Origin: Pseudomonadota bacterium
Lineage (GTDB): Bacteria > Myxococcota_A > UBA796 > SXON01
Direction: 5' to 3'
Length of the DNA stretch: 39,089 nucleotides
NCBI GenBank assembly: GCA_043750895.1
Contig: JAYVAS010000194.1
Coordinates: forward strand, 1 to 39,089
Of this stretch, positions 3,934 through 39,085 are shown piece after piece. The notes beneath the pieces are model-generated. The model did no database searches. It was not told the DNA's origin and saw only the letters and a list, made by a program, of their open reading frames with translations. How positions within the stretch are numbered: position 1 is the stretch's first letter; every line of letters begins with the position of its first letter. The translations under genes were made by a program, and so were the position numbers.

Positions 3934-4018
3934 TCACTCGCCACCACGAAACGTGTTTCTCCGTCACACGACGGCGACAACTGGCGTTATCATCAGCACC
4001 GTTCGGAGCACTCCAGGC

Positions 4019-5626: not shown

Positions 5627-5640
5627 CGCGGCCGCGCACG

Positions 5641-5683: not shown

Positions 5684-5732
5684 GGCGCTCGCGGCGGCTA
5701 CGCCCCCCGAACGAGAGGCGCGGCAATCCGGG

Positions 5733-7052
5733 CTAGAAGTACCGGTTGACCCCGAGGTTGGCCTGGGTGGCGCCCTGGCGCATGAGGTCCTCGCCGCCGT
5801 CGTTGAGGTAGCCGATGCCGCGCAGGTCCCCGTTCACCGACCAGTTCTTGCCGATGCCGAGCTCCAGGCCCACGCCCAGGTGCGGCCCCCACACCGGGTG
5901 GTCGTTGTCGACGAAGGCCTGCCCGATGTCGTCCTGGACGTTGCGGTTGGTGTAGGTCACGCCCGCCAGCACGTAGGGGTTGAAGCGCGTCCAGGGGAAC
6001 GCGAACAACTGCACAGAGGCAGACAGCGGCTGGTCGATCCGCGCGGTGGACGCGTCCCAGGACTGGTCGTGGTACGACCATTGCAGCTCCAGGCCGAGCG
6101 CATCCGCCGGCCGGTACCGCACGGCGAGCCCCATGCCGAAGTCGCTGTAGGCGGCCCCGTTGGTGTAGCCCGAGGCGTAGGTGCCGCCACGGGCGCCGAC
6201 CGCCCACGTGTCGTCCCGGTCGATGACCCGCTTGGGGCCCTTCTCGACCACCTCCGCGCTCTGCCGCGCGTAGGGCGGCGGGCCGTAGACGAAGACGCCG
6301 TGGTACCAGTAGCGGGGGTACCCGGGGTACCAGACCACGGGGCCACGGTAGGCCCAGAACCGCGCCGGGTGGGCGCCTCGATAGGCCCGTGCCCACGCCT
6401 GGTGGTGCGCCGCCGCCGCGGCATGCCCGCCGGGGCGCGCGCCGTGGTGCGCGGCCGCCGCCTGGTGGTGCGCGGCCGCGGTGTTGGCCGCGTGAGAGCC
6501 GGAAGGAGGGGGGCCCCGATGGCCCGGAGGGGGCGCGCCGTGGGCGGCGGCCGGGGGCGGGCGGAGGTTCGCGGGCATCGGCCGCGGGGCGCTTCGACCG
6601 GGGCTCGCGGCCGGCCCGGGACCGGTCGGGCTGCGCGGCGCGCCCGCGGAGATGGTCCGGCTCGGAGCTTGGGCGGGGCCATGGTCGGCCGGACGGGCGC
6701 CAGCCGGACCGCTGGGGCGATTCTCGGCCGGGCGCTCGGGACCACGGTCGGCTTCGCCGCGAGCGCTCGACGGCTCTCTGGACTCGGGCTTGGCATCGCC
6801 GCCGCGGCCATCCGCAGGCGCCCCGCCGTCGCGCGTGGTGGACGGAGGCTTCGCGCTCGAACCCCCAGAGCCGCCGCGCTGAGACGACCCCTTGCCCGCC
6901 TTCTCCCGACGGCCGCCGCCAGCGCCGTCCTTCTTGGCGGCCGCCTCTTCGCGGGCAGGACGCGCCACATCCGGCGCCGAGACGTCGGGCCCACCGGCAA
7001 ACGCCGCGTTGGAAGCCAGAAGAACCAAAGAAACCACGAGGTGTCCGACCAT
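5733..7052 (-). CDS. outer-membrane beta-barrel protein with long disordered N-terminal region
   Basis: Signal peptide MVGHLVVSLVLLASNAAFA|GG. About 210 aa of Pro/Gly/Ala/Arg/His-rich low complexity follow. The C-terminal ~190 aa has alternating beta-strand pattern and ends ...LGVNRYF (terminal Phe typical of OMPs). GGAGG RBS lies 4 nt upstream of ATG 7052. Confidence 0.85.
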   Translation of the reverse strand: MVGHLVVSLVLLASNAAFAGGPDVSAPDVARPAREEAAAKKDGAGGGRREKAGKGSSQRGGSGGSSAKPPSTTRDGGAPADGRGGDAKPESREPSSARGEADRGPERPAENRPSGPAGARPADHGPAQAPSRTISAGAPRSPTGPGPAASPGRSAPRPMPANLRPPPAAAHGAPPPGHRGPPPSGSHAANTAAAHHQAAAAHHGARPGGHAAAAAHHQAWARAYRGAHPARFWAYRGPVVWYPGYPRYWYHGVFVYGPPPYARQSAEVVEKGPKRVIDRDDTWAVGARGGTYASGYTNGAAYSDFGMGLAVRYRPADALGLELQWSYHDQSWDASTARIDQPLSASVQLFAFPWTRFNPYVLAGVTYTNRNVQDDIGQAFVDNDHPVWGPHLGVGLELGIGKNWSVNGDLRGIGYLNDGGEDLMRQGATQANLGVNRYF

Positions 7053-7190
7053 GCGACCTCCTTCGGAGGAAAAACGCGTACCGCCGTTCGACGTTCGAGG
7101 AAGCAGCTTATTCGCGCCGGTGTCTCTTCGGGCGGATTTCCGCGCCTGCCCCCCGGCGGTTACACGCCGCCGCTATTGATGGAGTCACGC

Positions 7191-8315
7191 ATGTGGGCCT
7201 TGTTCATCCACGCCTCTCTCGCCGCACCCTGCGACCCTGCGCCCATCCAGGCCGCCTTCGCCGACATCAGCCCCACCGCGGGCGGAGACAAGTACGTGGA
7301 GCTGGTGGCCTGCGATGCGGCCGCCGCCAAGGCGTTCGCGCCCGAAGCGTTCAAGAAGATCATCGCGGGCACCGGCGGAGACGCCGCGGCGATCGCCGCC
7401 ATCAAGGTCGGCGCGGGCGCCACCGTGCTCACATGGGTCAGCGCCCTCGAGCCCGACGACCGGGGCCCCACCCTGGCCCGCCTCGGGGACGGATGCGCCG
7501 CGCCCGAAGTCGCCACGTTCTTCGTCGACGCCGAGAAGTCCCTGGGCGACAACTTCTACCGCGGCCGCTGGTGGGCCGGCCTCGACTCCTGCCGCGTCGA
7601 GCCCGTGCAGCAGCTCCTCGCCACCGCGCTCAGCTCCCGCCGCAAGGACCGGACGCTGTTCGGGGCGCTGCTCGGGGTCTACGCCCGAAATCTGGGCGGG
7701 AAGGCCGTCCCCATGCTGACCGAGCTCATCACGGGAGAGACCGATCCCGCCGTGGTGATCGACATCGTCGACGCGTTCAGCGACGCGGCGGGGGTGGGGG
7801 ACCCCGGGGGCATCAATCCGGCCGCCGCCGAGGCTGCCGCGGCCGCGCTTCGCACGCTCGCGCCCACCCTCCCGGACAAGTCCGCGGACCAGACCCGCAA
7901 GACCTTCCTCTCCCTCAACGACGAGCTCGAGGCCGACAAGCAGGTCGCCGTGCGGTACCGCTCCATCCTCCAGCCGAAAGGTGGGCTGCTCTACGGGGTG
8001 GTGGGGGTCGAGGTGGCGGTCTGCAAGAAGGGGGACACCCGCGTGGAGGTCCACCACGCCCAGGTCCTGGATACCGGCCACACCTGGCCCGACCAGGTCG
8101 CCGAGCGCACCGACGCCAACGCCCGCTCCGCCTTCGCCTTCGAGCTCGCCGCGGATTGTAAGGGTACGAGCAAGATCACCATGACCTACCCCGAGGCGCC
8201 GTTCAAGGACGCTGCCGCGTACACCGCCTGGTTGAACGCCCGGCTGAACGAGGTGCGCACCGCGAATCCCGGGGTAGATGTAAAGGTACTGCCCGCGACG
8301 CCCATCTCCATCTGA
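7191..8315 (+). CDS. hypothetical secreted protein
   Basis: Only the last 375 codons of track ORF 5682..8315 have sensible composition. The upstream part is antisense to the OMP gene. ATG 7191 is preceded by GGAG plus 6 nt, and ATG 7179 is an alternative. The N-terminus MWALFIHASLAAPC is hydrophobic. The central part may be HEAT-like (LGGKAVPMLTELITGETDPAVVIDIVDAF). Confidence 0.72.
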   Translation: MWALFIHASLAAPCDPAPIQAAFADISPTAGGDKYVELVACDAAAAKAFAPEAFKKIIAGTGGDAAAIAAIKVGAGATVLTWVSALEPDDRGPTLARLGDGCAAPEVATFFVDAEKSLGDNFYRGRWWAGLDSCRVEPVQQLLATALSSRRKDRTLFGALLGVYARNLGGKAVPMLTELITGETDPAVVIDIVDAFSDAAGVGDPGGINPAAAEAAAAALRTLAPTLPDKSADQTRKTFLSLNDELEADKQVAVRYRSILQPKGGLLYGVVGVEVAVCKKGDTRVEVHHAQVLDTGHTWPDQVAERTDANARSAFAFELAADCKGTSKITMTYPEAPFKDAAAYTAWLNARLNEVRTANPGVDVKVLPATPISI

Positions 8316-8330
8316 CCGGAGGTCGTCCCC

Positions 8331-9449
8331 ATGGTCCTGCTCCCTTTCGCGCTCCTCACTGGTTGCCCGAGCACCGACGCCAAGCAGGACGACACCGGCT
8401 CGGCCGTGACCGACACCGACACCGACGCCGACACCGACACGGATGCGGACACCGATGCGGACACCGATGCGGACTCGGATGCCGACTCGGATGCGGACTC
8501 GGACTCCGACACCGACACGTCCCCCGGCGCGATCGGCCTGGACTTCACCGGGGAGTACGACGGTGGCGGGTACGCCCTGACCTACGTGGACGTGGCGGAC
8601 GGTCTGGCCGTCGGCGCCGTGCTGATCGAGGGCCCCGTCGACGGCGACCGCGTCGAACTCGACCCGCCCGCCCCCCCGTCCACCGACCTGGTGGAGGTCG
8701 ACGGCTACCCGGGGACCTACCTCGCCTATTACGCCCCGGCCCTGTTCGGAGACGACGATGGTAGCGGGACCCACGGCGCCACCGAGACCTGGTGGGGGGT
8801 CGGGAACACCTGGGCCATCTACCTGGACGGGAAGCTCCCGCCCGACCTCGCGGCGTTCGGGCTGTCGCTGGGGTGGAACGCGCTCACCTTCGACTTCGGC
8901 GGCGGCAGCCCCGAAGTGGGCGACGTCACCCACATCCCGGTCCCCACCAACCTCACGCCCGTGGAGGCGATGAGCTTCGGCGGTACCTACAGCGGCTCCA
9001 TCGACAGCGACGAGAACCGGCTGTTCCTCCTTCCCTACGTGTACCTGACCGGTGGGACCACCGCGTCCGTGCTCGCCGACCAGGCCCTCGGCCCCCCTTG
9101 GACCATCAGCCTCTCGGGCGCGCCCCCCAACGACCATCTGTTCGACGCGACCGGCGCCGGCGATCAGTTCGCGGCGCTGGAGATCCCGCTCACCTACCTC
9201 GACACCGACGGGAGCGGCAGTTGGGCCGCCACCGAGGGGGCCAACTGGGGGGCCTGCACCAGCACCGGGGCGCCGGTCGCGGCGTTGTGGACCGATGCGC
9301 CCTCCGATCTCGGCTACGCCATCGCCTACGCGGTCAACGGCAGCACCATCGGCTGGGATCTCATCGACGTCTCCACCGAATCGATGACCCCGGTGCCGAG
9401 CGCCGAGCGCTCGAACCTCGACATCGACGACGACTGCGTAATTTTCTAG
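8331..9449 (+). CDS. lipoprotein with (Asp-Thr/Ala/Ser)n linker
   Basis: MVLLPFALLTGC lipobox. GGAGG lies 8 nt upstream and the gene starts 15 nt after the preceding stop, so an operon is likely. A 37-residue TDTDTDADTDTDADTDADTDADSDADSDADSDSDTDT tract precedes a ~300-aa domain of unknown family. Confidence 0.85.
   Translation: MVLLPFALLTGCPSTDAKQDDTGSAVTDTDTDADTDTDADTDADTDADSDADSDADSDSDTDTSPGAIGLDFTGEYDGGGYALTYVDVADGLAVGAVLIEGPVDGDRVELDPPAPPSTDLVEVDGYPGTYLAYYAPALFGDDDGSGTHGATETWWGVGNTWAIYLDGKLPPDLAAFGLSLGWNALTFDFGGGSPEVGDVTHIPVPTNLTPVEAMSFGGTYSGSIDSDENRLFLLPYVYLTGGTTASVLADQALGPPWTISLSGAPPNDHLFDATGAGDQFAALEIPLTYLDTDGSGSWAATEGANWGACTSTGAPVAALWTDAPSDLGYAIAYAVNGSTIGWDLIDVSTESMTPVPSAERSNLDIDDDCVIF
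8409..8519 (+). repeat. in-frame 6-nt/12-nt tandem repeat (GAC-NCN)n encoding D-T/D-A/D-S
   Basis: Read directly: ACCGACACCGACACCGACGCCGACACCGACACGGATGCGGACACCGATGCGGACACCGATGCGGACTCGGATGCCGACTCGGATGCGGACTCGGACTCCGACACCGACACG. Confidence 0.9.
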
Positions 9450-9536
9450 ACTGAAGCGGCAGTCCGCGCGGGCCGATGGCGGGAAGACGCCGAAGGTCTG
9501 GCCGTGATTGGTGATTATGCTCACGACAGTGAGACC

Positions 9537-10220
9537 ATGAATCCGAACTCCGCTGCGGCGTCCTTGCGTCAGAGTTTCTTGGCGGGGCTGCTTGCCCTGC
9601 TGCCGCTCTTCATCACCTGGAAGATCCTCTCCTTCGCGTTCGTCACGGTGGACGGCTTCCTCGGCAATCGTCTGAACGAGCTGCTCTCCTACGCCGTCGG
9701 GCACCCGATCCACGTGCCGGGGCTCGGGCTGGTGACCACGCTGCTGCTGGTCGTGCTGGCCGGCTACCTCACCCGGAAGCTGTTCTTCAAGCAGGCGCTC
9801 AGGTGGTTGGAGACGTTGATCGACCGCATCCCCGGGGTGCGTTCGCTCTACAGCGCCTCCCGCCAGATCGTCGTGCCCTTCACCGACCACGCGAAGCTGC
9901 CCTTCTCGAAGGTGGTGCTGGTCGAGTATCCGATGGTCGGTCGCTACACGCTCGGGCTCCTCGCCCAGGAGCAGGTCACGAAGGATCCCGGGGACGACCG
10001 CGTCGTCGTCTTCTTCCCGTCGAACCACCTCCACCTCGGCTACCCCGTGGTGCTGCGGAGCTCAGACGTCACCACGGTGGACATGACCGTAGAGGAAGCG
10101 GTGAAGTTCTTCGTGAGCTGCGGCGTCGTGGGCGACGACAGCCTCATCCGCTCGGGGGGCGCGCTGGTCCGGTTCGAGGAGGCGCACCCGGGCGCCCTGC
10201 GGACCGTCCGAACCGGCTGA
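9537..10220 (+). CDS. DUF502 family membrane protein
   Basis: Typical DUF502 layout: LRQSFLAGLLALLPLFITWKIL..., a second TM at GLGLVTTLLLVVLAGYL, then ...IPGVRSLYSASRQIV...VVLVEYPMVGRYTLGLL...FFPSNHLHLGYPVVL. Start set to ATG 9537. The track start at 9504 is a GTG, 11 codons upstream. Confidence 0.85.
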   Translation: MNPNSAAASLRQSFLAGLLALLPLFITWKILSFAFVTVDGFLGNRLNELLSYAVGHPIHVPGLGLVTTLLLVVLAGYLTRKLFFKQALRWLETLIDRIPGVRSLYSASRQIVVPFTDHAKLPFSKVVLVEYPMVGRYTLGLLAQEQVTKDPGDDRVVVFFPSNHLHLGYPVVLRSSDVTTVDMTVEEAVKFFVSCGVVGDDSLIRSGGALVRFEEAHPGALRTVRTG

Positions 10221-10401
10221 ACCAGGCCACCAGCGCCAGCGCGGCGGCGGCGTTGATCTCCCCACACCCGCGCGAAGACTGGGTGTAGGTCTCCTCCAGC
10301 ACGAAGGCCGTGTCGCGGTAGGGGTCGGTGTCGGCGGTGTCCCCGGTGTCGGCGGTGTCGGCCAAGGCGAGGCCGTAGAGGAGGAGCCACATCGGCGTCA
10401 T
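10144..10401 (-). CDS. small secreted acidic peptide with Gly-Cys/TM/basic C-terminal tail (MYXO-CTERM-like)
   Basis: ATG 10401 overlaps the ABC transporter stop (ATGA). Translation is MTPMWLLLYGLALA DTADTGDTADTDPYRDTAFVLEETYTQSS RGCGEINAAAALALVAWFSRFGRS.... GC3 is high through about codon 65 and falls where the tail runs antisense into the DUF502 gene (10144-10220). This is the C-terminal portion of track ORF 10144..11232. Confidence 0.5.
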   Translation of the reverse strand: MTPMWLLLYGLALADTADTGDTADTDPYRDTAFVLEETYTQSSRGCGEINAAAALALVAWFSRFGRSAGRPGAPPRTGPARPPSG

Positions 10402-12182
10402 CCTACCGCGAACTGCCGCTCGACCAGGCGGCGATACACCCCGTCGAGGGCGACGAGCTCGTCGTGGCGGCCACTCTCCACCACCCGCCCGCCGTCGATG
10501 ACCACGACGCGGTCCGCATCCTTGACCGTGGACAGGCGGTGCGCGATCACCAGCACGGTGCGGCCCTTCATCAGCCGTTCGAGCGCTTCCTGGACGAGGT
10601 GCTCGCTCTCCGAGTCCAGCGCCGAGGTGGCCTCGTCCAGCACCAGGATCCGCGGGTCCTTGAGCAGCGCCCGCGCGATGGCGATTCGCTGCTTCTGGCC
10701 TCCGGACAGGCGTACCCCCCGCTCGCCGACCAGCGTGCCGTAGCCCTCGGGGAATCCGCTCACGAAGGTGTGGGCGTTCGCGGCCCGCGCGGCGTCCTCG
10801 ACCTGAGCGCGCGTGGCGCCCGGCCTGCCGTAGCGGATGTTGTCCTCGATGCTCGAGGCGAACAACACCGGCTCCTGGGACACCGCCCCGATCTGCTCCC
10901 GCAGCCAGTGGGTGTCGAGCGTGCGGATGTCCGTGCCGTCGAGGGTGACCCGCCCCGCGGTCGGGTCGTAGAAGCGCATCAGGAGCGCCGCGACCGTGCT
11001 CTTGCCGCTCCCGGACGGCCCCACCAGCGCCAGCACCTTGCCGGGCTCGAGGTCGAGGCTCACGCCGCGGAGGACTGGGGCGTCCAGGCGGGTGGGGTAG
11101 GCGAAGTCGACCGCCTCCAGCTTGACCAGTCCGACGTAGTCCTTCACCTGCACGCCGCCGGTGTTGACCACCCCGGGCTCCCGGTCCAGCAGCTCGAAGA
11201 CCCGCCCGCTCGCGCCCAGGGCCTTGTTCCAATCGGCGTACAGGCTCGAGAGGGTCCCCAGCGAGAAGGCCAGGAACAGCGTGTAGAGCATGAACGACGA
11301 GAGCGTACCGGCGGTGAAGGTGTCGGCCGGAGCGGGGAGGCCCGCCGCGGTGGCGGCCGCGACCGCGGCGCTGCTGTCGATCACGAGGCCGCCGCCGTAC
11401 CAGAGCACCAGCGCGATCGCGACGTACATCGCGAAGCCCGCCGCTCCCTGGAAGGTGCCGTAGGCCACGGCCAGACGGCGGCCCATCTCGAAGGCGTCCT
11501 GCACCCGCGACGCGTACCGCGCCGACTCCTGCTCCTCCCGGGCGAAGGCCCGGACGGTCCGGATGCTGCCCAGGGTCTCCTCGGCGACTTCATTGGCGGC
11601 GGCGAGCGCGTCCTGGGTCTTCCGGGAGAGGCTCCGGACGGTGCGGGCGAACACCACCGCGCCCACCGCCACCACCGGCACCACCGCGAGCATCAGCAGC
11701 GTGAGCCGCCAGCTCGTCCAGAACAGGACCGCGAGGCTCCCGACGGTCTGGAGGCCGAAGCGTAACGCCATCGAGACGTTGACGGTCACGCTGTTCTGGA
11801 GGACCCCGGTGTCGGCCGAGAGGCGGTTGATGAGCTCTCCGGTGCGCTGGGAGTCGAAGAAGCCCACCTCCTGACGGATGACGCTGCCGTAGAGATCGCG
11901 GCGCAACCGGGCCACCACCCGCTCACCGGCCAGCGTGAACAGCCAGGCGCGAAGAAAGCCGAAGATGCCGATCACGAGGAAGAGGGGGATCATCCAGAGG
12001 ATGGTCTGATTGAGGACCGCCCGACCATCGGGGCGGGACACGGCGTCCATCAGGATCTTCAGGCCCTGCGGGGCGATCAACCCGCCGCTCCCCCCGAGCA
12101 GCAGCGCCACCGTGCCCAGGACGAGCATCGTCATTTCGGGTTTGGCCAGCCCGATCAGCCGCCGCCAGGGAGAAGTCGCCAT
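10398..12182 (-). CDS. ABC transporter, fused permease/ATPase (ABCB/MsbA-type exporter)
   Basis: Start trimmed to ATG 12182 (MATSPWRRLIGLAKPEMTMLVLG...), 8 nt after the upstream stop. The 6-TM domain contains IRQEVGFFDSQRTGELINRLSADT. Walker A is GPSGSGKST, the signature is LSGGQKQR and Walker B is ILVLDEATSALD. Confidence 0.93.
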   Translation of the reverse strand: MATSPWRRLIGLAKPEMTMLVLGTVALLLGGSGGLIAPQGLKILMDAVSRPDGRAVLNQTILWMIPLFLVIGIFGFLRAWLFTLAGERVVARLRRDLYGSVIRQEVGFFDSQRTGELINRLSADTGVLQNSVTVNVSMALRFGLQTVGSLAVLFWTSWRLTLLMLAVVPVVAVGAVVFARTVRSLSRKTQDALAAANEVAEETLGSIRTVRAFAREEQESARYASRVQDAFEMGRRLAVAYGTFQGAAGFAMYVAIALVLWYGGGLVIDSSAAVAAATAAGLPAPADTFTAGTLSSFMLYTLFLAFSLGTLSSLYADWNKALGASGRVFELLDREPGVVNTGGVQVKDYVGLVKLEAVDFAYPTRLDAPVLRGVSLDLEPGKVLALVGPSGSGKSTVAALLMRFYDPTAGRVTLDGTDIRTLDTHWLREQIGAVSQEPVLFASSIEDNIRYGRPGATRAQVEDAARAANAHTFVSGFPEGYGTLVGERGVRLSGGQKQRIAIARALLKDPRILVLDEATSALDSESEHLVQEALERLMKGRTVLVIAHRLSTVKDADRVVVIDGGRVVESGRHDELVALDGVYRRLVERQFAVG

Positions 12183-12190
12183 CCGCCGGC

Positions 12191-13774
12191 CTATTGCGGA
12201 GGCGCGGGGGACGCCGCCTCCCCATTCGGGGGGGGCCGACTGCGGATGCGGATGCCGGGGTTCACACCGACCGGCAGGTCGTCTCCGTCCAGGGTGACCC
12301 CCCAGCCCAGGTACACCGGTCCCGAGTCGACGAGGCGGGCCAGCGCGGCGGCCAGATCGCTCACCCGCGCGTCGACCTGGGCACGGAGCACCACCGGGCG
12401 ACCGGTGAGCCCGGCGAGGTCGCGCGTCGCCACGATCTCGCCGCCATCGTCCACCAGCCGGTCCTTCAGGAGGATGAGCTTGCGGGGGTGGAGGAGGTCG
12501 ACGTCCACGCGCATACGCAGCGGGAAGGCGCCGCAACGGCCCGCCGCGCGGAGCGGATCGGAGGCGAGCGCGTCGAAGACGGCGGCCGTGACCGAGCCGC
12601 AGCCGATCACCTGGATCACCCCCGCCCGCGCGTCCGCGAGGTGGAAGTACACGTCCTCCATCAGCATTTCGGGGGGCAGGATGATGCCGTCACCGAGCTG
12701 CAGAGTGGCCGCCGCGGCCTCGAGGTCCCCGACCACCGCCGCGACCTCGACCCCACCGGACTGGCGCATCAGCACCCACCGCGGCGCCACCGGATCGGCC
12801 ACCAGGACCCGCGGCGGCACCAGCGCGCGGTGCGGGACGTCGTAGCCTCGACGCTCCTCGAGCACGGCCGCGGCGTGGTCCCCCGCGAGGTGGGAGAGCG
12901 TGCGGGCCCGGAAGGGGACCCAGCCCCAGACCAGGGCGACCACGATGAGCAGTCCGCCGACCCCGGCGACATCCAGGCCCGACCGGGCGTCGAGACCGCG
13001 GAGGCGCTGGACGAGGACGGAGGGCAAGATCCCCAGGCCCGCGACGGCGAGGAAGGGCACGATCGACGGGAGCACGTAGGCCACCGCCGCCTCGTGAGCG
13101 TCCAGCGCGCCCACCCGGGACCACACCGCGTCGAAGTCCGGAAGGGCCTGAAGCCCGTCGTACCAGGCGCCGCCGAGCTCGGCGATGATGAGCGCCAGGC
13201 TCCCGACGCCAAAGCAGGCGCCGGCGATACCGGACGCCGTCATCCGACGCGGCGCGGCGTCGAGGCCGGCCACCGCGGCGGCGCCCCCGAGCAGCACGAT
13301 GCCGATCGCGGACAGCAGGCCTCCCGCCGGGTCCCCGTAGGATCGCCCGAACACCGCCGCCCCCGCCGCCGCCACCACCGCCACCATCACCCCGAAGCCC
13401 GGCGCGAACCACCGGCGACGCCCCGCACGGAGCGCCCGCACCACCGCGCCCATCAGCGGCGGGAGGGTGAGCGCCAGCGCGCCGCCCCCGGCCACGATCG
13501 CGGGCCCGCCGGCGCGCGCGCGATCCTGAAGCGCGAACCACGGGACCCAGGCCGGGTCCGCCGCCGAGCCGACCGCGGCGATGCCGTCGTTCATCCCCTG
13601 CACCACCGCGAAGCCGCCCACCACCAGCGCCAACACGGGCGCGGCGATGGCGAGGACCGCAGGCACCCGGCGGCCGAACGCCACCATCGAGGCCAGGGCG
13701 AACTGGACCGGGAGCCCGAGGACCAGCAGCACGACGAGGAAGGGGCCGAAGGAGCCGGCGGCAGACAGCAGCAC
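12191..13774 (-). CDS. polytopic membrane protein with soluble C-terminal region, unknown family
   Basis: About 10 hydrophobic segments in the first ~330 aa are followed by a ~200-aa non-membrane region (…[22 protein letters not shown]…[37 protein letters not shown]…). That region is faintly ExbD/TolR-like. The start is uncertain. I use GTG 13774 (GAAGG 5 nt upstream). Track ATG 13873 would leave only 11 nt to the divergent mdh start. Confidence 0.68.
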
Positions 13775-13884
13775 GACGCCTTCTACCTCGTCAGGCGCCG
13801 AAGGTGTCGGCGCACCGAGACGAAGGGAGACGAGGCACGGGCGGCGCGTATGGGTTAAGGCCGCCGGCCTCACGAGGTCATCAC

Positions 13885-14865
13885 ATGAAGGCTCCCCTCA
13901 AGGTCAGCGTCACCGGCGCGGCCGGCAACATCGGGTACGCGTTGGTGTTCCGTCTCGCCGCTGGCGACTGCTACGGGAAAGACCAACCCATCATCCTCCA
14001 GCTGCTGGAGATCCCCCCCGGGATGAAGGCCCTCGAGGGCGTCGTGATGGAGCTCCAGGACTCGGCCTTCCCGCTCCTGCACGGGATCGAGATCTCGGAC
14101 GACCCCAACAAGGCGTTCTCGGGTATCAATCAGGCGTTCCTCGTCGGCAGCCGCCCGCGCACGAAGGACATGAACCGCGCCGACCTGATCACCGCCAACG
14201 GCCCCATCTTCACCGGTCAGGGCCGCGCCCTCAACGACAACGCCGCCAAGGACATCCGCGCGCTGGTCGTCGGCAACCCCTGCAACACCAACGCGCTGAT
14301 CGCGATGCACTCCGCGCCGGACATCCCGCGCGACCGTTTCCACGCGATGACCCGCCTCGACGAGAACCGCGCCAAGGCCCAGCTCGCCAAGAAGGTCGGC
14401 GCCCTCCCGGGCGACGTCACCAACCTCGCCATCTGGGGCAACCACTCCGACACGATGTTCCCGGACTTCTTCCAGGCCAAGGTCAATGGCAAGGCCGTCC
14501 CCGAGCTCTGCGACGAGGCGTGGCTGAAGGGCGACTTCATCAAGACCGTCGCCACCCGCGGCAAGGCCATCATCGAAGCCCGCGGTGCCTCCTCGGCGGC
14601 CTCCGCGGCCTCCGCCGCGATCGACCACATGTCGTCGCTGTGGCACGGCACCAAGCGGGGCCACTTCACCTCCATGGGCGTGTGCTCGAACGGCGAGTAC
14701 GGCGTGCCCAAGGGCCTGATCTTCAGCTTCCCGGTCCAGACGTCGAAGGGCAACTGGAAGGTCAAGAAGGGCATCAAGCTCAACGACTTCGCCCGCGCCG
14801 GCATCAAGAAGACCACCGACGAGCTCCTCGCCGAGCGCGAGACGGTCAAGGATCTCCTCAAGTAG
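13885..14865 (+). CDS. mdh: malate dehydrogenase (NAD-dependent)
   Basis: [25 protein letters not shown] (Rossmann GxxGxxG). Also present are ...[15 protein letters not shown]..., [13 protein letters not shown] and [12 protein letters not shown], typical of this MDH class. GAGGT RBS lies 6 nt upstream of ATG 13885. Confidence 0.96.
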
Positions 14866-14922
14866 GGCGCGTCCGGCGCCGGATGGGGGCGACAAGCCCG
14901 CGTCCGGCTGCCCGCGGCGACG

Positions 14923-15711
14923 CTAGGGCGTCGGCACCGGCGCCGTCGGCCCGCTGGTCTCGATGGGCGCCACGTCGAGCTTGATGTCCGGCCCGGTGGG
15001 CTGGGGCGGCGCCTCGGCGCCCACGGCGGCCCAGTGGGTCTGCACCCACCCGATGATCAGCGACTCCAGGGTGGGCTCCCGGTTCAGCATCGTGGTGCCC
15101 TTCCCGGCCTTCTCGAACATCTCCAGGCGATGGGTCCCGACCGCGACGCGGTCGAGCGACGTCGCGGAGCGGGCCGAGTAGACGTCGTCCTCGCTGGCCA
15201 CCATCAACAGCGGGCGCGCGCCGTACCGTTTCACCGCATCGGTGGTGATCACCCCCTTCACGTCCACCCCGGGCGAGAGCATCACCACGGTGCGGATGCT
15301 GGGATCATCGGCCGCGAGGTTGATCGCGAGGTTCGCCCCGACCTCGGCGCCCACGATCGCCACGTTGGTGCACCCCTTGGCGTGCAGGTAGTCGACCGCG
15401 GCCTTCACGTCGGCGATCATCGGCGCGTAGCTCGAGGGCGCCGTCGCGCCGGCCACCGCGTTGCCCCCCTGACCCCGCAGATCCACCGCGAGCACCTGCA
15501 CGTCGGCCCGGTAGAGCTTCTCGGCGAGCAGTTGCCAGTCCTCCTTCGCCCGACCCGCCATGTGGACGAACACCACGCCGTTCACCGCCTTGCTCGGGGC
15601 TCCGTACACGGCCTTGAGGCTGACGCCGTCGACCGTCTTGAGGGTGACCTGGGTGGGGAAGCTCGAGGCGGCCTGGGCGACCGAGTACAGCACGAGGAGG
15701 AGGAACATCAT
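14923..15711 (-). CDS. secreted alpha/beta-hydrolase-fold protein lacking the canonical Ser/His (probable pseudoenzyme)
   Basis: Start ATG 15711 overlaps the upstream stop (ATGA). Signal peptide is MMFLLLVLYSVAQAAS. The fold pattern is VVFVHMAGRAKEDW...VAIVGAEVGANLA...VVMLSPG...PLLMVASEDDVY...FEKAGKGTT. The nucleophile elbow reads G-A-E-V-G. The tail is Pro-rich. Confidence 0.8.
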   Translation of the reverse strand: MMFLLLVLYSVAQAASSFPTQVTLKTVDGVSLKAVYGAPSKAVNGVVFVHMAGRAKEDWQLLAEKLYRADVQVLAVDLRGQGGNAVAGATAPSSYAPMIADVKAAVDYLHAKGCTNVAIVGAEVGANLAINLAADDPSIRTVVMLSPGVDVKGVITTDAVKRYGARPLLMVASEDDVYSARSATSLDRVAVGTHRLEMFEKAGKGTTMLNREPTLESLIIGWVQTHWAAVGAEAPPQPTGPDIKLDVAPIETSGPTAPVPTP

Positions 15712-16103
15712 GGCGAGGGGAACACCTGGGTCAGGGCGTTGAGTTCGGCGAGCAGATCGGCGACGGGGAACCCTTCGGCGAACGCCGCCTCGCCCAGGGT
15801 CTCGTCCGCGCCCACCGCACACGCGGGGCAGGCGGGCAGGCCCCGGCGCGCGAACGCCTCCGCGACCGCCGGGTGGCGCGCGTGGGCGGCGTGCACCGTC
15901 ATCTCGAGCCGGAAGGGGGCGGGGTCGGCGCGGGCGTGGAGGGCGGCGGTCCGAGACTCGACCGCCCCGACCTGCCGACGCAGCCCGGTGAGGTCGGCGC
16001 GCACCGCGTCGAGGCCCATCCGTCGCTCCGCCAGGACCGACACGACCCGCGCGCGCAACCACGTGCGGGCACGACGACGGGCGGACGCCAGGGCGGGAAC
16101 CAT
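15708..16103 (-). CDS. coiled-coil protein with C-terminal DUF1858 (redox-disulfide, ScdA-N-like) domain
   Basis: ATG 16103 lies directly behind GGAGAGG. The C-terminus MTVHAAHARHPAVAEAFARRGLPACPACAVGADETLGEAAFAEGFPVADLLAELNAL matches the DUF1858 pattern: CxxC, then (S/T)LxEAA, then ...LLxELN. Confidence 0.68.
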   Translation of the reverse strand: MVPALASARRRARTWLRARVVSVLAERRMGLDAVRADLTGLRRQVGAVESRTAALHARADPAPFRLEMTVHAAHARHPAVAEAFARRGLPACPACAVGADETLGEAAFAEGFPVADLLAELNALTQVFPSP

Positions 16104-16122
16104 CCTCTCCAGCTTACTCTGT

Positions 16123-16151
16123 TTGACGTCGCACCCGGGAACCGCTACAAG
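16123..16151 (+). promoter_or_regulatory. candidate sigma70-type promoter for tadA
   Basis: TTGACG (16123-16128), a 17-nt spacer, then TACAAG (16146-16151) in the tadA/DUF1858 divergent intergenic region. This is a motif match only. Confidence 0.3.
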
Positions 16152-16192
16152 GCGGCCGCTCCGGGGTGCCAACCACCCCCGCATGCTCTTTG

Positions 16193-16678
16193 ATGAACCC
16201 CATGGAATCTTCTGACACGGACAGCCGCTGGATGCGGCATGCGCTCGCGCTCGCCGCGCGCGCCGCCGAAGCGGGCGAGGTCCCGGTCGGCGCCCTGGTT
16301 TTGCTCGATGGAGCCCTCCTCGCCGAGGGGGTGAACACCAGGGAGACGCACCAGGACCCCTGCGGTCACGCCGAGGTGAACGCGCTCCGCGCTGCCGCCC
16401 AGGCCCGCGGAAACTGGCATCTCGATGGCTGTACCGTCTACGTCACGCTCGAACCCTGCGCCATGTGCGCGGGGGCCATGGTCCTCGCCCGGATCGCCCG
16501 CTGTGTCTACGCAGCCCGCGACCCCAAGGGCGGGTTCCTCGGCACGCTGGGAGATCTCTCCCGGCACCCCGGTCTCAACCACCAGTTCTCGGTGGTCGCC
16601 GGGGTCGAGGAAGCGGCCGCCCGGACCCAGCTACAGGGGTTCTTCGCGGCCCGGCGGAGTCGGAAGACCAACGTTTGA
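16193..16678 (+). CDS. tadA: tRNA adenosine(34) deaminase
   Basis: CDA-fold zinc motifs HAE (CGHAEVNAL) and PCxxC (LEPCAMCAGAM) are present, with the typical WMRHALALA N-terminus. The start is ambiguous: GTG 16166, ATG 16193 or ATG 16202. None has a clear SD. Confidence 0.9.
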   Translation: MNPMESSDTDSRWMRHALALAARAAEAGEVPVGALVLLDGALLAEGVNTRETHQDPCGHAEVNALRAAAQARGNWHLDGCTVYVTLEPCAMCAGAMVLARIARCVYAARDPKGGFLGTLGDLSRHPGLNHQFSVVAGVEEAAARTQLQGFFAARRSRKTNV

Positions 16679-16681
16679 TGC

Positions 16682-16771
<90 letters not shown>

Positions 16772-16812
16772 TCCCTTCGTCGGCACGCGACCTCGGTTGT
16801 GCGTCGTAATCT

Positions 16813-16900
16813 GGACAGGTGACCGAGTGGTCGAAGGTGCACGACTGGAAATCGTGTGTATCGAAAGGTACCGCGGGTTCGAATCCCGCCCTGTCCGCCA
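16813..16900 (+). tRNA. tRNA-Ser (anticodon GGA)
   Basis: Acceptor is GGACAGG/CCTGTCC. Anticodon stem CACGA/TCGTG carries loop CTGGAAA. There is a long variable arm, T-loop CGGGTTCGAATCCCG and an encoded CCA. Confidence 0.95.
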
Positions 16901-16926
16901 TTTCCCGCCCCTTGGCGGGTGAATTT

Positions 16927-17055
16927 CTCGCCCCCGTTGGTGATGGTCGGGTCCTCGTGACCGGAGCGTCGTGAATCCCGCCAGGTCCTGACGGAAGCAA
17001 CGGTGTCGATGGCTTCGGGGCATGAGGGTGCCCGGCCATCACCAACGGGGGCGAG
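16927..17055 (+). ncRNA. ffs: signal recognition particle RNA (small bacterial 4.5S type)
   Basis: A long closing helix pairs CTCGCCCCCGTTGGTGATGGTCGGG (16927-) with CCCGGCCATCACCAACGGGGGCGAG (-17055). The apical domain IV motif is CCAGGTCC-TGAC-GGAAGCAAC (compare E. coli CAGGUCC-GGAA-GGAAGCAGC). The position directly upstream of dnaX matches many bacteria. Confidence 0.8.
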
Positions 17056-17119
17056 CCCCGCCCCGCGCGGAGGCCCCCTGCACGCGGGCCGCGTTAGGAC
17101 TGCGCGGATCGAGGAACCC

Positions 17120-18349
17120 GTGGCGGAAGAACAAGGCTACGTCGCCATCGCGCGCAAGTGGCGCCCGCTCACCCTGGAGGACATGTCCGGCCAGGCGCAC
17201 GTCACCCGCACGCTGAAGAACGCGATCGGGTCCGGGCGCATCCACCACGCCTTCTTGTTCACCGGTGCCCGCGGCGTCGGCAAGACCACCGCCGCCCGCG
17301 CGTTCGCGCGCGCCCTCCAGTGCATGAAGGGGCCGACCGTCACCCCCTGCGGCGAATGCACGCCCTGTATCGAGACGCTCGCCGGCAACTCGCCTGACGT
17401 CATCGAGATCGACGGCGCCTCCAACAACTCGGTCGAAGACATCCGCGATCTCCGCGACGGCGTCCGCTACGCGCCGCAGATCGCGCGCTTCCGCATCTAC
17501 ATCATCGACGAAGTGCACATGCTCTCGAAGGGGGCCTTCAACGCCCTCCTCAAGACCCTCGAAGAGCCGCCGCCCCACGCGAAGTTCATCTTCGCCACCA
17601 CCGAAGTCAACAAGGTCCCGGAGACCATCCTCTCCCGGGTCCAGCGCTTCGACTTCAAGCGCATCCCGGTGACGGTGGTGGCGGCGCGGCTGCGGCGCAT
17701 CGTGGACGCCGAGGGCATCACCATCTCCGAGGCGGCGCTGCGCATGATCGCGCGCGCCGGCGAAGGCTCGATGCGGGACGCGCAGAGCCTGCTCGACCAG
17801 GTGATCAGCTTCGCCTCGGCGCGGAACCCCAGCGACCAGGAGGTCGCCGACATCCTGGGTCTCGTCGATCGCACCGTGCTCTACGAGATGCTGACCGGCC
17901 TGATGCGCGGCGAAGCCGACCGCTGCTTCGACGCCATCGCGCTGGTCCACGACGAAGGCTACGAGCTGGCCCAGTTCACCACCGAGCTGCTCGAGCTCAT
18001 CCGCAACGCCGCCCTGGTCGCGCTCTCCCCCGCAGCCCGCAAGCACCTCGACGTCCCCGAGGACGAGAAGGACCGCCTCACCGAGCTCGCCGGGGACGTG
18101 CCGGCCGATCAGCTGGCCCGCACCTTCCAGGTCCTGCTCGAGGTGCACGACGAGGTCGCCCGCGCGTCCCGGCCCCGGATGGTCCTGGAGATGGCCGTCG
18201 CCCGGCTCATCGCCGTGCGCGCCGCCCAGCCTATCGGCGGGCTGGTCGAACGCTTGGTCGACCTCGAACGACGCCTTCGCGGCGCCGGCGCGGTCGCAGG
18301 CCGCTCCCGTTCCCGCGAAGGCGGGGATGGGTCGGAGGGCGACAGGTAG
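17120..18349 (+). CDS. dnaX: DNA polymerase III gamma-length product of dnaX (clamp-loader domains I-III)
   Basis: GTG 17120 follows GAGGA plus 4 nt, and earlier track starts lie inside the SRP RNA. Sequence is YVAIARKWRPLTLEDMSGQAHV..., with Walker A GARGVGKTT, a Zn module CMKGPTVTPCGECTPC, Walker B/DEAD-like YIIDEVHML and sensor SRVQRF. It stops at TAG 18347-18349 after 409 aa. Confidence 0.9.
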   Translation: MAEEQGYVAIARKWRPLTLEDMSGQAHVTRTLKNAIGSGRIHHAFLFTGARGVGKTTAARAFARALQCMKGPTVTPCGECTPCIETLAGNSPDVIEIDGASNNSVEDIRDLRDGVRYAPQIARFRIYIIDEVHMLSKGAFNALLKTLEEPPPHAKFIFATTEVNKVPETILSRVQRFDFKRIPVTVVAARLRRIVDAEGITISEAALRMIARAGEGSMRDAQSLLDQVISFASARNPSDQEVADILGLVDRTVLYEMLTGLMRGEADRCFDAIALVHDEGYELAQFTTELLELIRNAALVALSPAARKHLDVPEDEKDRLTELAGDVPADQLARTFQVLLEVHDEVARASRPRMVLEMAVARLIAVRAAQPIGGLVERLVDLERRLRGAGAVAGRSRSREGGDGSEGDR

Positions 18350-18995
18350 AGGGCCCGAGGGTCTCCCGGCGCCACGTCCGCCGGCTTCCGCGCCCCCCGC
18401 GCCCGTCCTCGCCGGCCCGCCGCCCGCGCCGCCCCCCGCAGCTCCTACGGCCACCCCGGTCGCCCCCTCCGCGGTCCCCGTCGCCCCCTCCGCGTTCCGT
18501 CCGCCGGTCGTCGCGTCCGCGCCGCCCCCGGAACCTCCTCCGCCGGAACCTGCCCCGCCGGAACCTGCCCCGCCGAGCCCCCGCCTGGGGTGGCGCGGCG
18601 TCCTCGAGTCCCTCCCCGAGCTGCCGCGGGTCACCGTGGCCGACAACGCCGCCTTCCTCGGCTACGAAGACGGCGCAGTGCGGCTCGTCGCGCGCAGCGA
18701 CTTCAACCGCACCCGGGTCTGGGACGCGCTCAAGCCCATCGACTTCTCCGAGCATTTCGCCGGCTTCCGTCGGCTGGACCTCACGGTCGACGACGCCTCC
18801 GGCCGGACCGGTCGGGAGTCCCATCACCTCGCCGACACCGCGCGCCGCGAAGCGGCCAGACACGCCGCCGAGGCCGCGCCGGCGGTCCGCCGCGTCCTCG
18901 AGGCCTTCGGCGGCAAGCTCGAGCGCATCGAACCCTCGGGCGTCGCGCCGCGGGAGCTCATCCCGGGCGAGCCCGACTCCCCCGACGAGCCCTGA
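18327..18995 (+). CDS. dnaX: tau-specific linker and C-terminal domain of dnaX, in the +1 frame (frameshifted, recoded or split)
   Basis: This frame is open from well upstream of 18243 to 18995. It encodes a Pro/Ala linker (APRPPASAPPAPVLAGPPPAPPPAAP...PEPPPPEPAPPEPAPP) and a folded C-terminal region (WRGVLESLPELPRVTVADNAAFLGYEDGAVRLVARSDF...). ATG 18327 is the first start codon. The true N-terminus depends on how the frames are joined. Confidence 0.7.
   Translation: MGRRATGRGPEGLPAPRPPASAPPAPVLAGPPPAPPPAAPTATPVAPSAVPVAPSAFRPPVVASAPPPEPPPPEPAPPEPAPPSPRLGWRGVLESLPELPRVTVADNAAFLGYEDGAVRLVARSDFNRTRVWDALKPIDFSEHFAGFRRLDLTVDDASGRTGRESHHLADTARREAARHAAEAAPAVRRVLEAFGGKLERIEPSGVAPRELIPGEPDSPDEP
18528..18572 (+). 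repeat. 3 x 15-nt tandem repeat (CCGGAACCTSCYCCG) encoding PEPPP/PEPAP/PEPAP in the tau linker
   Basis: Read directly: ccggaacctcctccg ccggaacctgccccg ccggaacctgccccg. Confidence 0.85.

Positions 18996-36813: not shown

Positions 36814-39085
<2,272 letters not shown>

What the first reader, a model, noticed from the sequence alone, without database searches (positions are those of the whole stretch)
17120..18995. dnaX reading frame breaks exactly at the gamma/tau boundary, in a prfB-like +1 frameshift context
The zero frame ends at TAG 18347-18349 after 409 aa, that is after clamp-loader domains I-III, a gamma-length product. The tau-specific Pro/Ala linker and C-terminal domain continue in the +1 frame, which is already open upstream and runs to 18995. 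Skipping the single base T18347 joins ...GDGSEGDR to RGPEGLPAPRPPASAPP... seamlessly. The local sequence is GGAGGG (18334-18339), CGAC, AGG, TAG. An SD-like element a few nt upstream of a shift codon followed by an in-frame stop is the layout of the programmed +1 site in prfB (AGGGGG-UAU-CUU-UGA). AGG should be a rare codon in this GC3-rich genome. In E. coli tau is the zero-frame product and gamma arises by -1 frameshifting. Thermus uses transcriptional slippage. Here tau would require obligatory +1 recoding, which would be a new variant. There are two alternatives. The C-terminal part could be made separately from ATG 18327 (GAAGG 5 nt upstream), giving a naturally split dnaX. Or this is a 1-nt assembly error or a pseudogene.
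Basis: partly seen in the sequence, partly recalled or inferred. Interest (0 to 1): 0.7.

Follow-up and report, generated by a model that had tools for sequence, protein, structure and literature searches.

The report
dnaX needs frameshift to make tau
In this uncultured Myxococcota-like bacterium and its relatives, the replication gene dnaX stops after its short (gamma-like) form and the rest of the long (tau) form lies in another reading frame behind a conserved ribosome-binding-like sequence, a very rare AGG codon and a stop, which points to a programmed ribosomal frameshift of a type not described for this gene.

Summary
dnaX frame 0 (17120-18349, 409 aa, clamp-loader domains I-III) ends at TAG 18347-18349. 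The Pro/Ala linker and a 135-aa domain continue in +1 to 18995.

It is not an assembly error or a pseudogene. The 69 closest DnaX protein clusters in public data are all 385-450 aa and end at the same ...E-G-(E/D)-(R/S) motif. Homologs at 69% identity or less are mostly contiguous 590-705 aa tau.

The downstream domain is homologous to the C-terminus of those contiguous tau proteins (hhalign 97.9%) and is under purifying selection. No start codon is conserved; ATG 18327 is ACG in relatives. The C-frame has no stop in 1081 linker codons across 17 loci.

The cassette G-GAG-GGN-GAS-AGG is fixed at synonymous sites, and AGG is 1.1% of Arg codons here. Substitution patterns place the shift within GAC-AGG-T.

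Best reading: obligatory programmed +1 frameshifting (AGG to GGU at UAG, SD-like GGAGGG 4 nt upstream) makes tau, and termination makes gamma.

Unexpectedly, most of the clade carries the tau part in +2, behind GAG-AG(G/T). The window's +1 subclade is nested inside it. The mechanism is inferred, not shown. Tau-by-recoding was known only for poly-A dnaX genes.

The parts
17120..18349 (+). dnaX ORF1, frame 0: the gamma-length product of 409 aa (clamp-loader domains I-III), ending in the TAG stop
   Evidence: ORF and translation. Pfam matches DNA_pol3_delta2, DNAX_ATPase_lid and DNA_pol3_gamma3. Relatives have the same 409-aa gene.
18334..18339 (+). Shine-Dalgarno-like GGAGGG, the candidate 5' frameshift stimulator that would pair with the 16S rRNA tail
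   Evidence: The G at the synonymous third position of the preceding codon (CCG, TCG, GCG or AAG) is present in all 24 loci, although CCG is only 47% of Pro codons here. GAG never becomes GAA.
18340..18343 (+). 4-nt spacer CGAC. It contains the GAC codon (18341-18343), whose last base C is specific to the +1 subclade; +2 lineages have GAG.
   Evidence: C versus G at this base correlates perfectly with +1 versus +2 placement of the tau part.
18344..18346 (+). AGG, the rare Arg codon and proposed shift (P-site) codon: AGG to GGU
   Evidence: AGG is 1.1% of Arg codons in the window. It is conserved in 22 of 24 loci; the other two have AGT.
18347..18349 (+). UAG, the frame-0 stop. It ends gamma and is the proposed slow A-site codon during the shift.
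   Evidence: TAG directly follows AGG in all four +1 lineages.
18348..18350 (+). AGA, the first +1-frame codon. It is AGR in all +1 lineages and is an alternative landing codon for a +4 hop of tRNA-Arg.
   Evidence: AGA/AGA/AGG/AGG in window, L081, L083 and L097. The changes are synonymous in +1.
18348..18581 (+). Pro/Ala-rich linker of tau, in the +1 frame
   Evidence: Translation. Linker length varies from 18 to 137 codons among relatives, yet the frame is never interrupted: 0 stops in 1081 codons versus 11 and 5 in the other two frames.
18582..18995 (+). Tau C-terminal domain (about 135 aa) in the +1 frame, with stop TGA 18993-18995
   Evidence: - hhalign against the C-termini of contiguous DnaX gives 97.9% probability, E 3.4e-13.
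- A targeted HMM search hits those same C-termini.
- pN/pS is 0.28-0.33.
- The AlphaFold2 model has mean pLDDT 79.9.
18327..18329 (+). It is window-specific and probably incidental.
   Evidence: This codon is ACG in L081/L082, L083 and L097/L098.

Best explanation
dnaX in this genome is a recoded gene.

**Proposed mechanism.** Ribosomes translating frame 0 reach GAC-AGG-UAG (18341-18349). Those that terminate at UAG release a 409-aa gamma-like clamp-loader subunit. A programmed fraction shifts one base forward. Peptidyl-tRNA-Arg re-pairs from AGG to GGU while the RF1-specific stop UAG occupies the A site. The shift is helped by pairing of the 16S rRNA tail with GGAGGG, which ends 4 nt upstream of AGG. 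Translation then continues through the Pro/Ala linker and the C-terminal domain, giving a tau-like subunit of about 624 aa.

**Variants that give the same frame.**
- A +4 hop of tRNA-Arg from AGG to the AGR codon that overlaps the stop, making a product one Arg shorter.
- Ty3-like out-of-frame reading of GGU while the rare AGG waits in the A site.

**Shown.**
- The break, the cassette and the tau C-domain are conserved and under selection.
- The frame switch maps to within GAC-AGG-T.
- No conserved start codon exists.

**Inferred.**
- The event is ribosomal.
- Which tRNA moves.
- The GGAGG element acts through the anti-SD.
- Both products are made and used.

**The sister lineages.** In these, GAG-AG(G/T) is followed by a stop 0-4 codons later and the tau part lies in +2. 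The analogous inference is a +2 slip of peptidyl-tRNA-Glu from GAG to the overlapping GAG of GAGAG, while the rare AGG or AGT codon is awaited.
For: **1. The break is a clade trait.** The 69 best DnaX hits (71-100% identity; sources JGI, ENA, NCBI and Logan) are 385-450 aa. All end 0-4 residues after E-[GED]-[ED]-[RS]. Of the next 51 hits, 41 are at least 580 aa and read straight through an acidic ...DDDGEPAR...-type motif at the equivalent place. An NJ tree makes the short clade monophyletic.

**2. The downstream ORF is tau's C-terminus.**
- Profile-profile comparison with the last 150 aa of contiguous relatives gives 97.9% probability and E 3.4e-13 over 118 columns.
- A targeted HMM search matches those proteins at their extreme C-termini.
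- pN/pS is 0.28-0.33.

**3. The shift position is pinned.** Differences among window, L081 and L083 upstream of the site fall mainly on frame-0 third positions (9/13, 10/16 and 9/11). GGC/GGA/GGG and GAT/GAC are synonymous only in frame 0. AGA-GGG-CCC, AGA-GGA-CCG and AGG-GGC-CCA are synonymous only in +1. In the +2 lineages L095 and L099, a TGA inside the cassette closes the +2 frame until 4 nt before the frame-0 stop codon (L095) or 10 nt before it (L099).

**4. There is nucleotide-level constraint beyond the protein.**
- G precedes GAG in 24 of 24 loci, although CCG is 47% of Pro codons.
- AGG is used although it is 1.1% of Arg codons.
- Both R-to-S variants use AGT.

**5. No independent start is conserved.** The nearest in-frame starts are window ATG at -8, L081 GTG at -47, L097 GTG at -20 and L083 GTG at -173. 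L087 has none from -439 until after the first conserved residue of the domain.

**6. The linker frame stays open.** There are 0 stops in 1081 linker codons in 17 loci, against 11 and 5 in the other frames (Poisson P about 3e-4). L091 and L096 conserve ...GE(A/M)SG... just after the junction, with a TCG/AGC serine codon switch.

**7. The layout fits known rules.** A 5' SD stimulates +1 shifts at about 3 nt spacing, and peptidyl-tRNA-Arg on AGG is shift-prone in E. coli at AGG_AGG (PMC5009743). Efficient +1 sites allow P-site re-pairing with at most one mismatch (bioRxiv 10.1101/2025.10.02.679949). AGG to GGU gives G.U, G-C and one wobble-position mismatch.
Against: - No experiment, read pile-up, ribosome profile or peptide is available, so the mechanism rests on comparative inference.
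- The SD spacing is 4 nt, or 5 from the GGAGG core, not the canonical 3.
- After a +1 slip the new A-site codon is itself very rare (AGA, 0.2% of Arg), which is not what one expects for an efficient shift.
- Most of the clade has the tau part in +2 behind almost the same cassette, and some of those lineages also have AGG-TAG-G (L094, L095). A simple 'SD + AGG + stop gives +1' rule would send their ribosomes into a junk frame.
- Frame differences between subclades are what one would expect if the two ORFs were translated independently.
- All about 50 library-wide representatives of this C-domain family are short, separately called proteins. This is equally compatible with a stand-alone protein.
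- No conserved 3' RNA structure was found.
Confidence: 0.7

Rival explanations
1. Naturally split dnaX. The gamma-like ORF and a separate 'linker + C-domain' protein are translated independently. The conserved GGAGG near the end of ORF1 would serve as the ribosome-binding site for coupled re-initiation. In the window the start would be ATG 18327; elsewhere it would be a weak or non-canonical start. No tau polypeptide would ever be made.
For: - The window has ATG 18327 with GAAGG 5 nt upstream.
- L086 and L099 have a GTGA stop-start overlap in the C frame.
- The C-part lies in +1 in one subclade and +2 in the rest, as expected if frames were free to drift.
- Every library-wide member of the C-domain family is called as a small stand-alone ORF.
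- An SD just before the end of an upstream gene is common in coupled operons (PMC5009743).
Against: - No start codon is conserved in position or identity. ATG 18327 is ACG in L081, L083 and L097.
- L083, L087, L104 and L108 have no ATG/GTG/TTG between far upstream and, or nearly up to, the conserved W that opens the domain.
- The codons that sit at SD-appropriate spacing are GGT/AGR (+1 lineages) or GTA/GCG/TCG (+2 lineages), none of which is a start codon.
- The C frame is never interrupted between the stop and the domain, over 1081 codons.
- Linker residues just after the junction are conserved before any start codon (L091/L096).
- A C-domain detached from the clamp loader would lose tau's function of tethering the polymerase to the loader (established knowledge of E. 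coli tau).
Confidence: 0.17
2. The frame is restored at the RNA level, by transcriptional slippage or editing, rather than by the ribosome. This is how Thermus dnaX and the poly-A two-ORF dnaX genes are thought to work.
For: Precedent in the same gene: Thermus thermophilus has a run of nine A, and Chlorobi and Flavobacterium have runs of 7-10 A (PMC3711429; and the supplement).
Against: - The 0/+1 overlap region 17904-18352 contains no homopolymer longer than 5. The only run is CCCCC at 18027, far upstream and inside the conserved domain III.
- The cassette GGAGGGCGACAGGTAG has no run longer than GGG.
- The substitution pattern places the switch within GAC-AGG-T.
Confidence: 0.03
3. Artefact or decay. 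The break is a 1-nt assembly or sequencing error, or a recent pseudogenising indel, and the +1 ORF is a relic.
For: High-GC MAG contigs do carry indel errors. A single window cannot exclude this on its own.
Against: - The identical break appears in independent assemblies from different samples and pipelines. These are ERZ28573520, ERZ27315224, SRR23217735, JGI 3300013131 and 3300014720, plus 13 GTDB species representatives and others for the +2 form.
- All 69 nearest protein clusters are gamma-length.
- The C-domain is under purifying selection at pS of about 0.45.
Confidence: 0.01

Closest known systems
prfB (release factor 2) programmed +1 ribosomal frameshift
   Same: - An internal Shine-Dalgarno-like element lies a few nt 5' of the shift codon.
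- An in-frame stop occupies the A site.
- The full-length product is made only by a +1 shift.
- No 3' RNA structure is involved.
   Different: - The shift codon is AGG (to GGU, one wobble mismatch), not CUU (to UUU).
- The spacer is 4 nt, not 3.
- The stop is UAG (RF1), not UGA (RF2), so the autoregulatory logic is absent.
- The site lies two-thirds into the gene, and the zero-frame product is a 409-aa protein that is probably functional, not a 25-residue peptide.
E. coli-type dnaX -1 frameshift (A_AAA_AAG, SD 10 nt upstream, 3' stem-loop; Rfam RF00382)
   Same: Same gene and same boundary after domain III. The presumed outcome is the same: gamma and tau from one locus. An SD-like stimulator is used.
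   Different: - Here tau, not gamma, is the shifted product.
- The direction is +1.
- There is no slippery heptamer.
- There is no significant 3' structure.
- No Rfam family other than TPP, tRNA and SRP reached its gathering threshold in the window.
Two-ORF dnaX genes in which tau requires recoding (Antonov et al. 2013, PMC3711429; restated in Atkins et al. 2016, PMC5009743)
   Same: [quoted passage not shown] Tau is made only by recoding. The genes are annotated as two ORFs.
   Different: - Those 17 genes (12 genera; the named examples are Chlorobium, Chloroherpeton and Flavobacterium) are -1 at the DNA level.
- 12 of them carry runs of 7-10 A, and transcriptional slippage is proposed.
- Here the genome is 71% GC, there is no run, the cassette is SD-like plus a rare AGG plus a stop, and the frame is +1.
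Rare-codon (AGG) driven +1 frameshifting: E. coli AGG_AGG tandem codons and yeast Ty1 CUU-AGG-C
   Same: A very rare AGG codon lies at the heart of the site. Peptidyl-tRNA-Arg on AGG slipping to GGN is documented (PMC5009743). For Ty1, a 0-frame AGG competing with an abundant +1 GGN reader is recalled from memory, not checked here.
   Different: The AGG is not tandem. The pause is probably provided by a stop codon, not by a second hungry codon. Here the site is conserved and evidently used, whereas no natural use of AGG_AGG is established.
Thermus thermophilus dnaX (transcriptional slippage) and Caulobacter crescentus dnaX (proteolysis of tau to gamma)
   Same: These are further independent routes to two DnaX products, which underlines selection for a gamma/tau pair (PMC5009743).
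   Different: In both, tau is the directly encoded single ORF, and the mechanisms are transcriptional or post-translational.

Membership tests
DnaX (DNA polymerase III gamma/tau clamp-loader subunit) | AAA+ module, lid and domain III (Pfam DNA_pol3_delta2, DNAX_ATPase_lid, DNA_pol3_gamma3) | tested here: met
   E-values are 4e-41, 1e-15 and 3e-30 on the 409-aa frame-0 product. The context ffs-dnaX-ybaB-recR is typical.
DnaX (DNA polymerase III gamma/tau clamp-loader subunit) | Tau-specific C-terminal extension homologous to that of contiguous tau proteins | tested here: met
   - hhalign of the C-domain profile against the C-termini of contiguous 600-700 aa relatives gives 97.9%, E 3.4e-13.
- The targeted HMM hits those C-termini.
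- Direct links to solved E. coli and Thermus tau domain V are only weak: 5fku_E at E 0.56, 4iqj_M at E 0.8, and Foldseek 2aya at rank 12, E 0.24.
- Pfam tau_4 and tau_5 are not detected.
prfB-type +1 programmed frameshift cassette | In-frame stop codon immediately 3' of the shift codon | tested here: met
   AGG-TAG is present in the window and in all four +1 lineages.
prfB-type +1 programmed frameshift cassette | SD-like element 3 nt upstream of the shift codon | tested here: inconclusive
   GGAGGG is conserved at synonymous sites in 24 of 24 loci, but the spacing is 4 nt (5 from the GGAGG core) rather than 3.
prfB-type +1 programmed frameshift cassette | P-site codon that lets its tRNA re-pair in +1 (CUU_U) | tested here: inconclusive
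   AGG_U to GGU gives G.U, G-C and a mismatch at the wobble position. This is acceptable by the 'at most one mismatch' rule, but it is not the canonical codon.
prfB-type +1 programmed frameshift cassette | Autoregulation: the stop is read by the factor that the gene encodes (UGA/RF2) | tested here: not met
   The stop is UAG, read by RF1 only, and the product is DnaX. The site therefore works like prfB at most mechanistically. It is not a member of the prfB family.
prfB-type +1 programmed frameshift cassette | A demonstrated trans-frame protein | not testable with these tools
   This needs proteomics, a western blot or a reporter assay.
E. coli-type dnaX -1 frameshift element (RF00382) | X_XXY_YYZ slippery heptamer with a 3' stem-loop | tested here: not met
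   - There is no heptamer in the 0/+1 overlap.
- The downstream folding z-score is +1.07 for the window and ranges from -1.5 to +1.9 across loci.
- The Rfam gathering scan lists only TPP, two tRNAs and SRP RNA.
Poly-A two-ORF dnaX (Antonov et al. 2013) | Run of 7-10 A at the ORF junction; downstream ORF in -1 | tested here: not met
   There is no A or T run, and the longest homopolymer in the overlap is CCCCC. The frame is +1 in the window.
Poly-A two-ORF dnaX (Antonov et al. 2013) | Zero-frame stop for gamma directly after the recoding site, with tau only by recoding | tested here: met
   This organisational feature is shared.
Translationally coupled split gene | Start codon of the downstream ORF within reach of the upstream stop or SD, conserved among relatives | tested here: not met
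   ATG 18327 is window-specific. The relatives have no conserved ATG/GTG/TTG.

The most novel reading that the evidence does not exclude
An entire uncultured Myxococcota clade makes its essential tau subunit only by obligatory forward frameshifting at one compact cassette: SD-like GGAGG plus a rare AGG or AGT codon. That cassette has changed its shift during evolution. Most lineages would use a +2 slip of tRNA-Glu on GAG-AG. The window's nested subclade would use a +1 slip, or a +4 hop, of tRNA-Arg at AGG-UAG-AGR, and the switch is marked by a single G-to-C change. This would be the first natural, essential-gene use of a +2 slip and the first documented switch of frameshift type in one gene. 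It would also tie the gamma:tau ratio to the supply of a rare tRNA-Arg and of RF1.
Probability: 0.3. Interest if true: 0.88.

Novelty: new variant of a known kind. Interest (0 to 1): 0.72.

Why it matters
**A rare kind of recoding.** Chromosomal +1 programmed frameshifts in bacteria are very few, and prfB is the textbook case. An essential replication gene whose long product depends on a +1 shift at AGG-UAG would be a second, independent example, with different codons and without autoregulation.

**Another route to gamma and tau.** Known routes are the -1 shift in E. coli, transcriptional slippage in Thermus and the poly-A genes, and proteolysis in Caulobacter. A further route strengthens the case that a short DnaX form is under selection.

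**A natural experiment on shift direction.** The +1 and +2 sister arrangements behind one cassette show how SD spacing, rare codons and stops determine the direction and size of a shift.

**A practical annotation error.** Genome pipelines annotate these loci as a 'gamma/tau' protein of about 410 aa plus a 'hypothetical protein' of 115-217 aa. The tau C-terminus of a whole clade is therefore mis-annotated, and completeness or essential-gene analyses would miss it.

Tried and rejected
**Searches that led nowhere**
- C-domain scans of genome contigs and metagenome contigs found no relative.
- DNA patterns specific to the window's subclade found nothing in genome contigs or metagenome contigs.
- A relaxed pattern found only a chance match in a Pseudomonas contig, with a stop just upstream in the same frame.
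- The +1 subclade is therefore known only from ENA, Logan and JGI contigs reached through protein look-ups.

**Analyses that were uninformative**
- Ungapped substitution counts downstream of the junction fail beyond about 10 nt because the linker is full of indels.
- Downstream RNA folding shows no consistent or significant structure.
- Sequence and fold searches of the C-domain against the PDB were weak. The top Foldseek hits were DciA and DnaA domain I, with tau domain V at rank 12.

**Explanations considered and rejected**
- UAG read-through or reassignment. The frame-0 continuation is an unconserved Arg-rich sequence, and the conserved domain is in +1.
- Transcriptional slippage and a canonical -1 heptamer.
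- An intein or intron. Nothing is inserted, and the two frames abut.
- Initiation at GTA, GGT or AGR at SD-appropriate spacing. These are not start codons.
- A -1 slip at the last sense codon in the +2 lineages. The codons before their stops (GGG, GGA, TCT, GGC, CCG, CGG, CGC, CAC) share no slipperiness, whereas GAG-AG is invariant.
Full report
**1. The observation**

- From GTG 17120 the frame runs 409 codons to TAG 18347-18349.
- The local sequence is GGAGGG (18334-18339), CGAC, AGG, TAG.
- The +1 frame is open from 17904 to TGA 18993-18995.
- Dropping T18347 joins ...SEGDR to RGPEGLPAPR.

The 409-aa product carries the three clamp-loader domains: Pfam delta2, lid and gamma3. The +1 part has no Pfam match. 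dnaX lies in the usual ffs-dnaX-ybaB-recR setting, with SRP RNA at 16945-17040 and two tRNA-Ser genes upstream.

The window is 71% GC. AGG is 1.1% of its Arg codons and AGA is 0.2%. The composite GGAGG-N5-AGGTAG occurs once in the window. No match was found in any of 100 shuffles.

**2. It is a clade trait, not an error**

A search with the +1 part found two relatives, and their contigs show the same arrangement. dnaX ends at ...REGGDGSEGDR-TAG and the rest continues in +1.

A search with the N-terminal part gave a sharp picture.
- The 69 best clusters (71-100% identity) come from JGI, ENA, NCBI and Logan. The few that carry names are MAGs labelled Myxococcota, Myxococcales or Pseudomonadota.
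- They are 385-450 aa long, and every one ends 0-4 residues after E-[GED]-[ED]-[RS].
- Of the next 51 hits, at 69% identity or less, 41 are at least 580 aa. These read straight through an acidic ...DDDGEPAR...-type motif into a Pro-rich linker.

An NJ tree makes the short clade monophyletic. DNA for 24 loci was obtained.

**3. The downstream ORF is the tau C-terminus and is functional**
- A profile of the downstream domain aligns with the last 150 residues of the contiguous relatives at 97.9% probability, E 3.4e-13, over 118 columns.
- A targeted HMM search hits those proteins at their extreme C-termini.
- pN/pS on the domain is 0.28-0.33 among window, L081 and L083, at pS of about 0.45.
- The domain folds confidently, with mean pLDDT 79.9.
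- Its resemblance to solved tau domain V, DciA and DnaA domain I is only weak.
- Library-wide, the family has about 50 representatives. All are short, separately called 'hypothetical' proteins.

**4. Where the frame changes**

Upstream of the site, differences among window, L081 and L083 fall mainly on frame-0 third positions. GGC/GGA/GGG and GAT/GAC are synonymous only in frame 0. From the base after T18347, AGA-GGG-CCC, AGA-GGA-CCG and AGG-GGC-CCA are synonymous only in +1. The switch therefore lies within GAC-AGG-T.

**5. No independent start**
- ATG 18327 is ACG in L081, L083 and L097.
- The nearest in-frame starts are at -47, -173 and -20 in those three loci.
- L087, L104 and L108 have none for hundreds of bases.
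- The start sites chosen by gene callers differ from locus to locus, and they cut off the conserved N-terminal 20 residues of the domain.
- Across 17 loci the linker (18-137 codons) has no stop in the C frame in 1081 codons, against 11 and 5 in the other frames.

**6. The cassette**

G-GAG-GGN-GA(C/G)-AG(G/T) is constrained at the nucleotide level.
- The third base of the preceding codon is G in 24 of 24 loci, although CCG is 47% of Pro codons.
- GAG is never GAA.
- The rare AGG is kept in 22 of 24 loci, and the two exceptions are AGT.

Several features of other recoding types are absent.
- The overlap has no homopolymer longer than 5 and no X_XXY_YYZ heptamer.
- There is no significant 3' structure.
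- No Rfam frameshift element was detected.

**7. The unexpected part**

The tau part is in +1 only in the window's subclade, which has GAC-AGG-TAG-RG (four lineages). In all other loci it is in +2, behind GAG-AG(G/T), with the stop 0-4 codons later.

The +1 subclade is nested inside the +2 clade, and its sister L104 is +2. In L095 and L099 a TGA inside the cassette closes the +2 frame until the second GAG of GAGAG. This pins their shift to the few bases before the frame-0 stop.

The only feature invariant in all +2 lineages is GAGAG preceded by GGAGG. The simplest inference is a +2 slip of peptidyl-tRNA-Glu while a rare AGG or AGT codon is awaited. This is unproven, and it is the main unexplained point.

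**8. Most likely mechanism for the window** (inference)

Termination at UAG gives gamma. A programmed +1 slip of peptidyl-tRNA-Arg from AGG to GGU gives tau. The slip is promoted by the slow RF1-dependent stop and by anti-SD pairing to GGAGGG 4 nt upstream.

Supporting rules from the literature:
- An SD about 3 nt upstream stimulates +1 shifts, whereas 9-14 nt stimulates -1 shifts (PMC5009743).
- tRNA-Arg on AGG is shift-prone (PMC5009743).
- Good +1 sites tolerate one P-site mismatch.

Two variants give the same frame: a +4 hop from AGG to AGR, and out-of-frame reading of GGU.

The split-gene rival keeps about 0.17 probability because frames differ between subclades and no protein data exist.

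**9. Comparison with what is known**

The site works like prfB but is not a member of that family. The codon, the stop and the spacing differ, and there is no autoregulation.

It shares the 'tau needs recoding' organisation of the two-ORF dnaX genes of Antonov et al. 2013 (PMC3711429), as restated in PMC5009743. It lacks their defining poly-A run and -1 frame.

Full-text searches found no description of a Myxococcota or Deltaproteobacteria dnaX frame break.

Verdict: a new variant of a known kind, well supported comparatively, with the mechanism still to be shown.

Noticed in passing
L106:1690-1800 (ENA TARA scaffold; protein P0110, and P0121 similar): A different lineage, at 67% identity and outside the EGER clade by identity, also ends dnaX at gamma length (...DDKEPSPAR-TGA, 410 aa). 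A long ORF continues in the +2 frame behind a different local sequence (AAGGAGCCGTCCCCGGCACGC-TGA). This may be a second, independent origin of two-ORF dnaX.
   Followed up: partly
window 36815-36909 (+): A TPP riboswitch scores 69.7 bits against a gathering score of 54.3. It is unrelated to the finding.
   Followed up: no
window 16682-17040 (+): Two tRNA-Ser genes (anticodons CGA and GGA) and the small SRP RNA (ffs, 16945-17040) lie directly upstream of dnaX. The mechanical ORF that starts at GTG 17003 overlaps ffs, so GTG 17120 is the likely dnaX start. This agrees with the 409-aa gene in relatives.
   Followed up: partly
L098:4320-4536 versus L097: Two JGI contigs encode the same 406-aa DnaX and give the same +1-frame translation for about 38 codons after the junction. 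They then diverge inside the Pro/Ala repeat near the end of L098. This is probably an assembly problem or a variant at a repetitive linker.
   Followed up: no
window 18582-18992 (model m727c359337dd): The best Foldseek matches of the C-domain model are the helicase loader DciA (8a3v_D, E 1.7e-3; 7ykm) and DnaA domain I (4tps), ahead of E. coli tau domain V (2aya, rank 12). All matches are weak (TM 0.27-0.37).
   Followed up: partly
L083:1292-2218; L100:4519-5745; L102:4479-5341: Synteny downstream of the tau part varies among relatives. L083 has a 308-aa reverse-strand gene between it and ybaB. L100 has an MFS transporter between ybaB and recR. L102 has ybaB-recR on the opposite strand. The dnaX/C-part junction is conserved regardless.
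   Followed up: no
L088 and L094, +2-frame linkers: Two +2 lineages share a conserved acidic motif inside the otherwise fast-evolving linker: GPDAD(E/V)ERDAP(G/S)GRDVYAAASQRRDG. Its function is unknown, but it is further evidence that the linker is translated.
   Followed up: no
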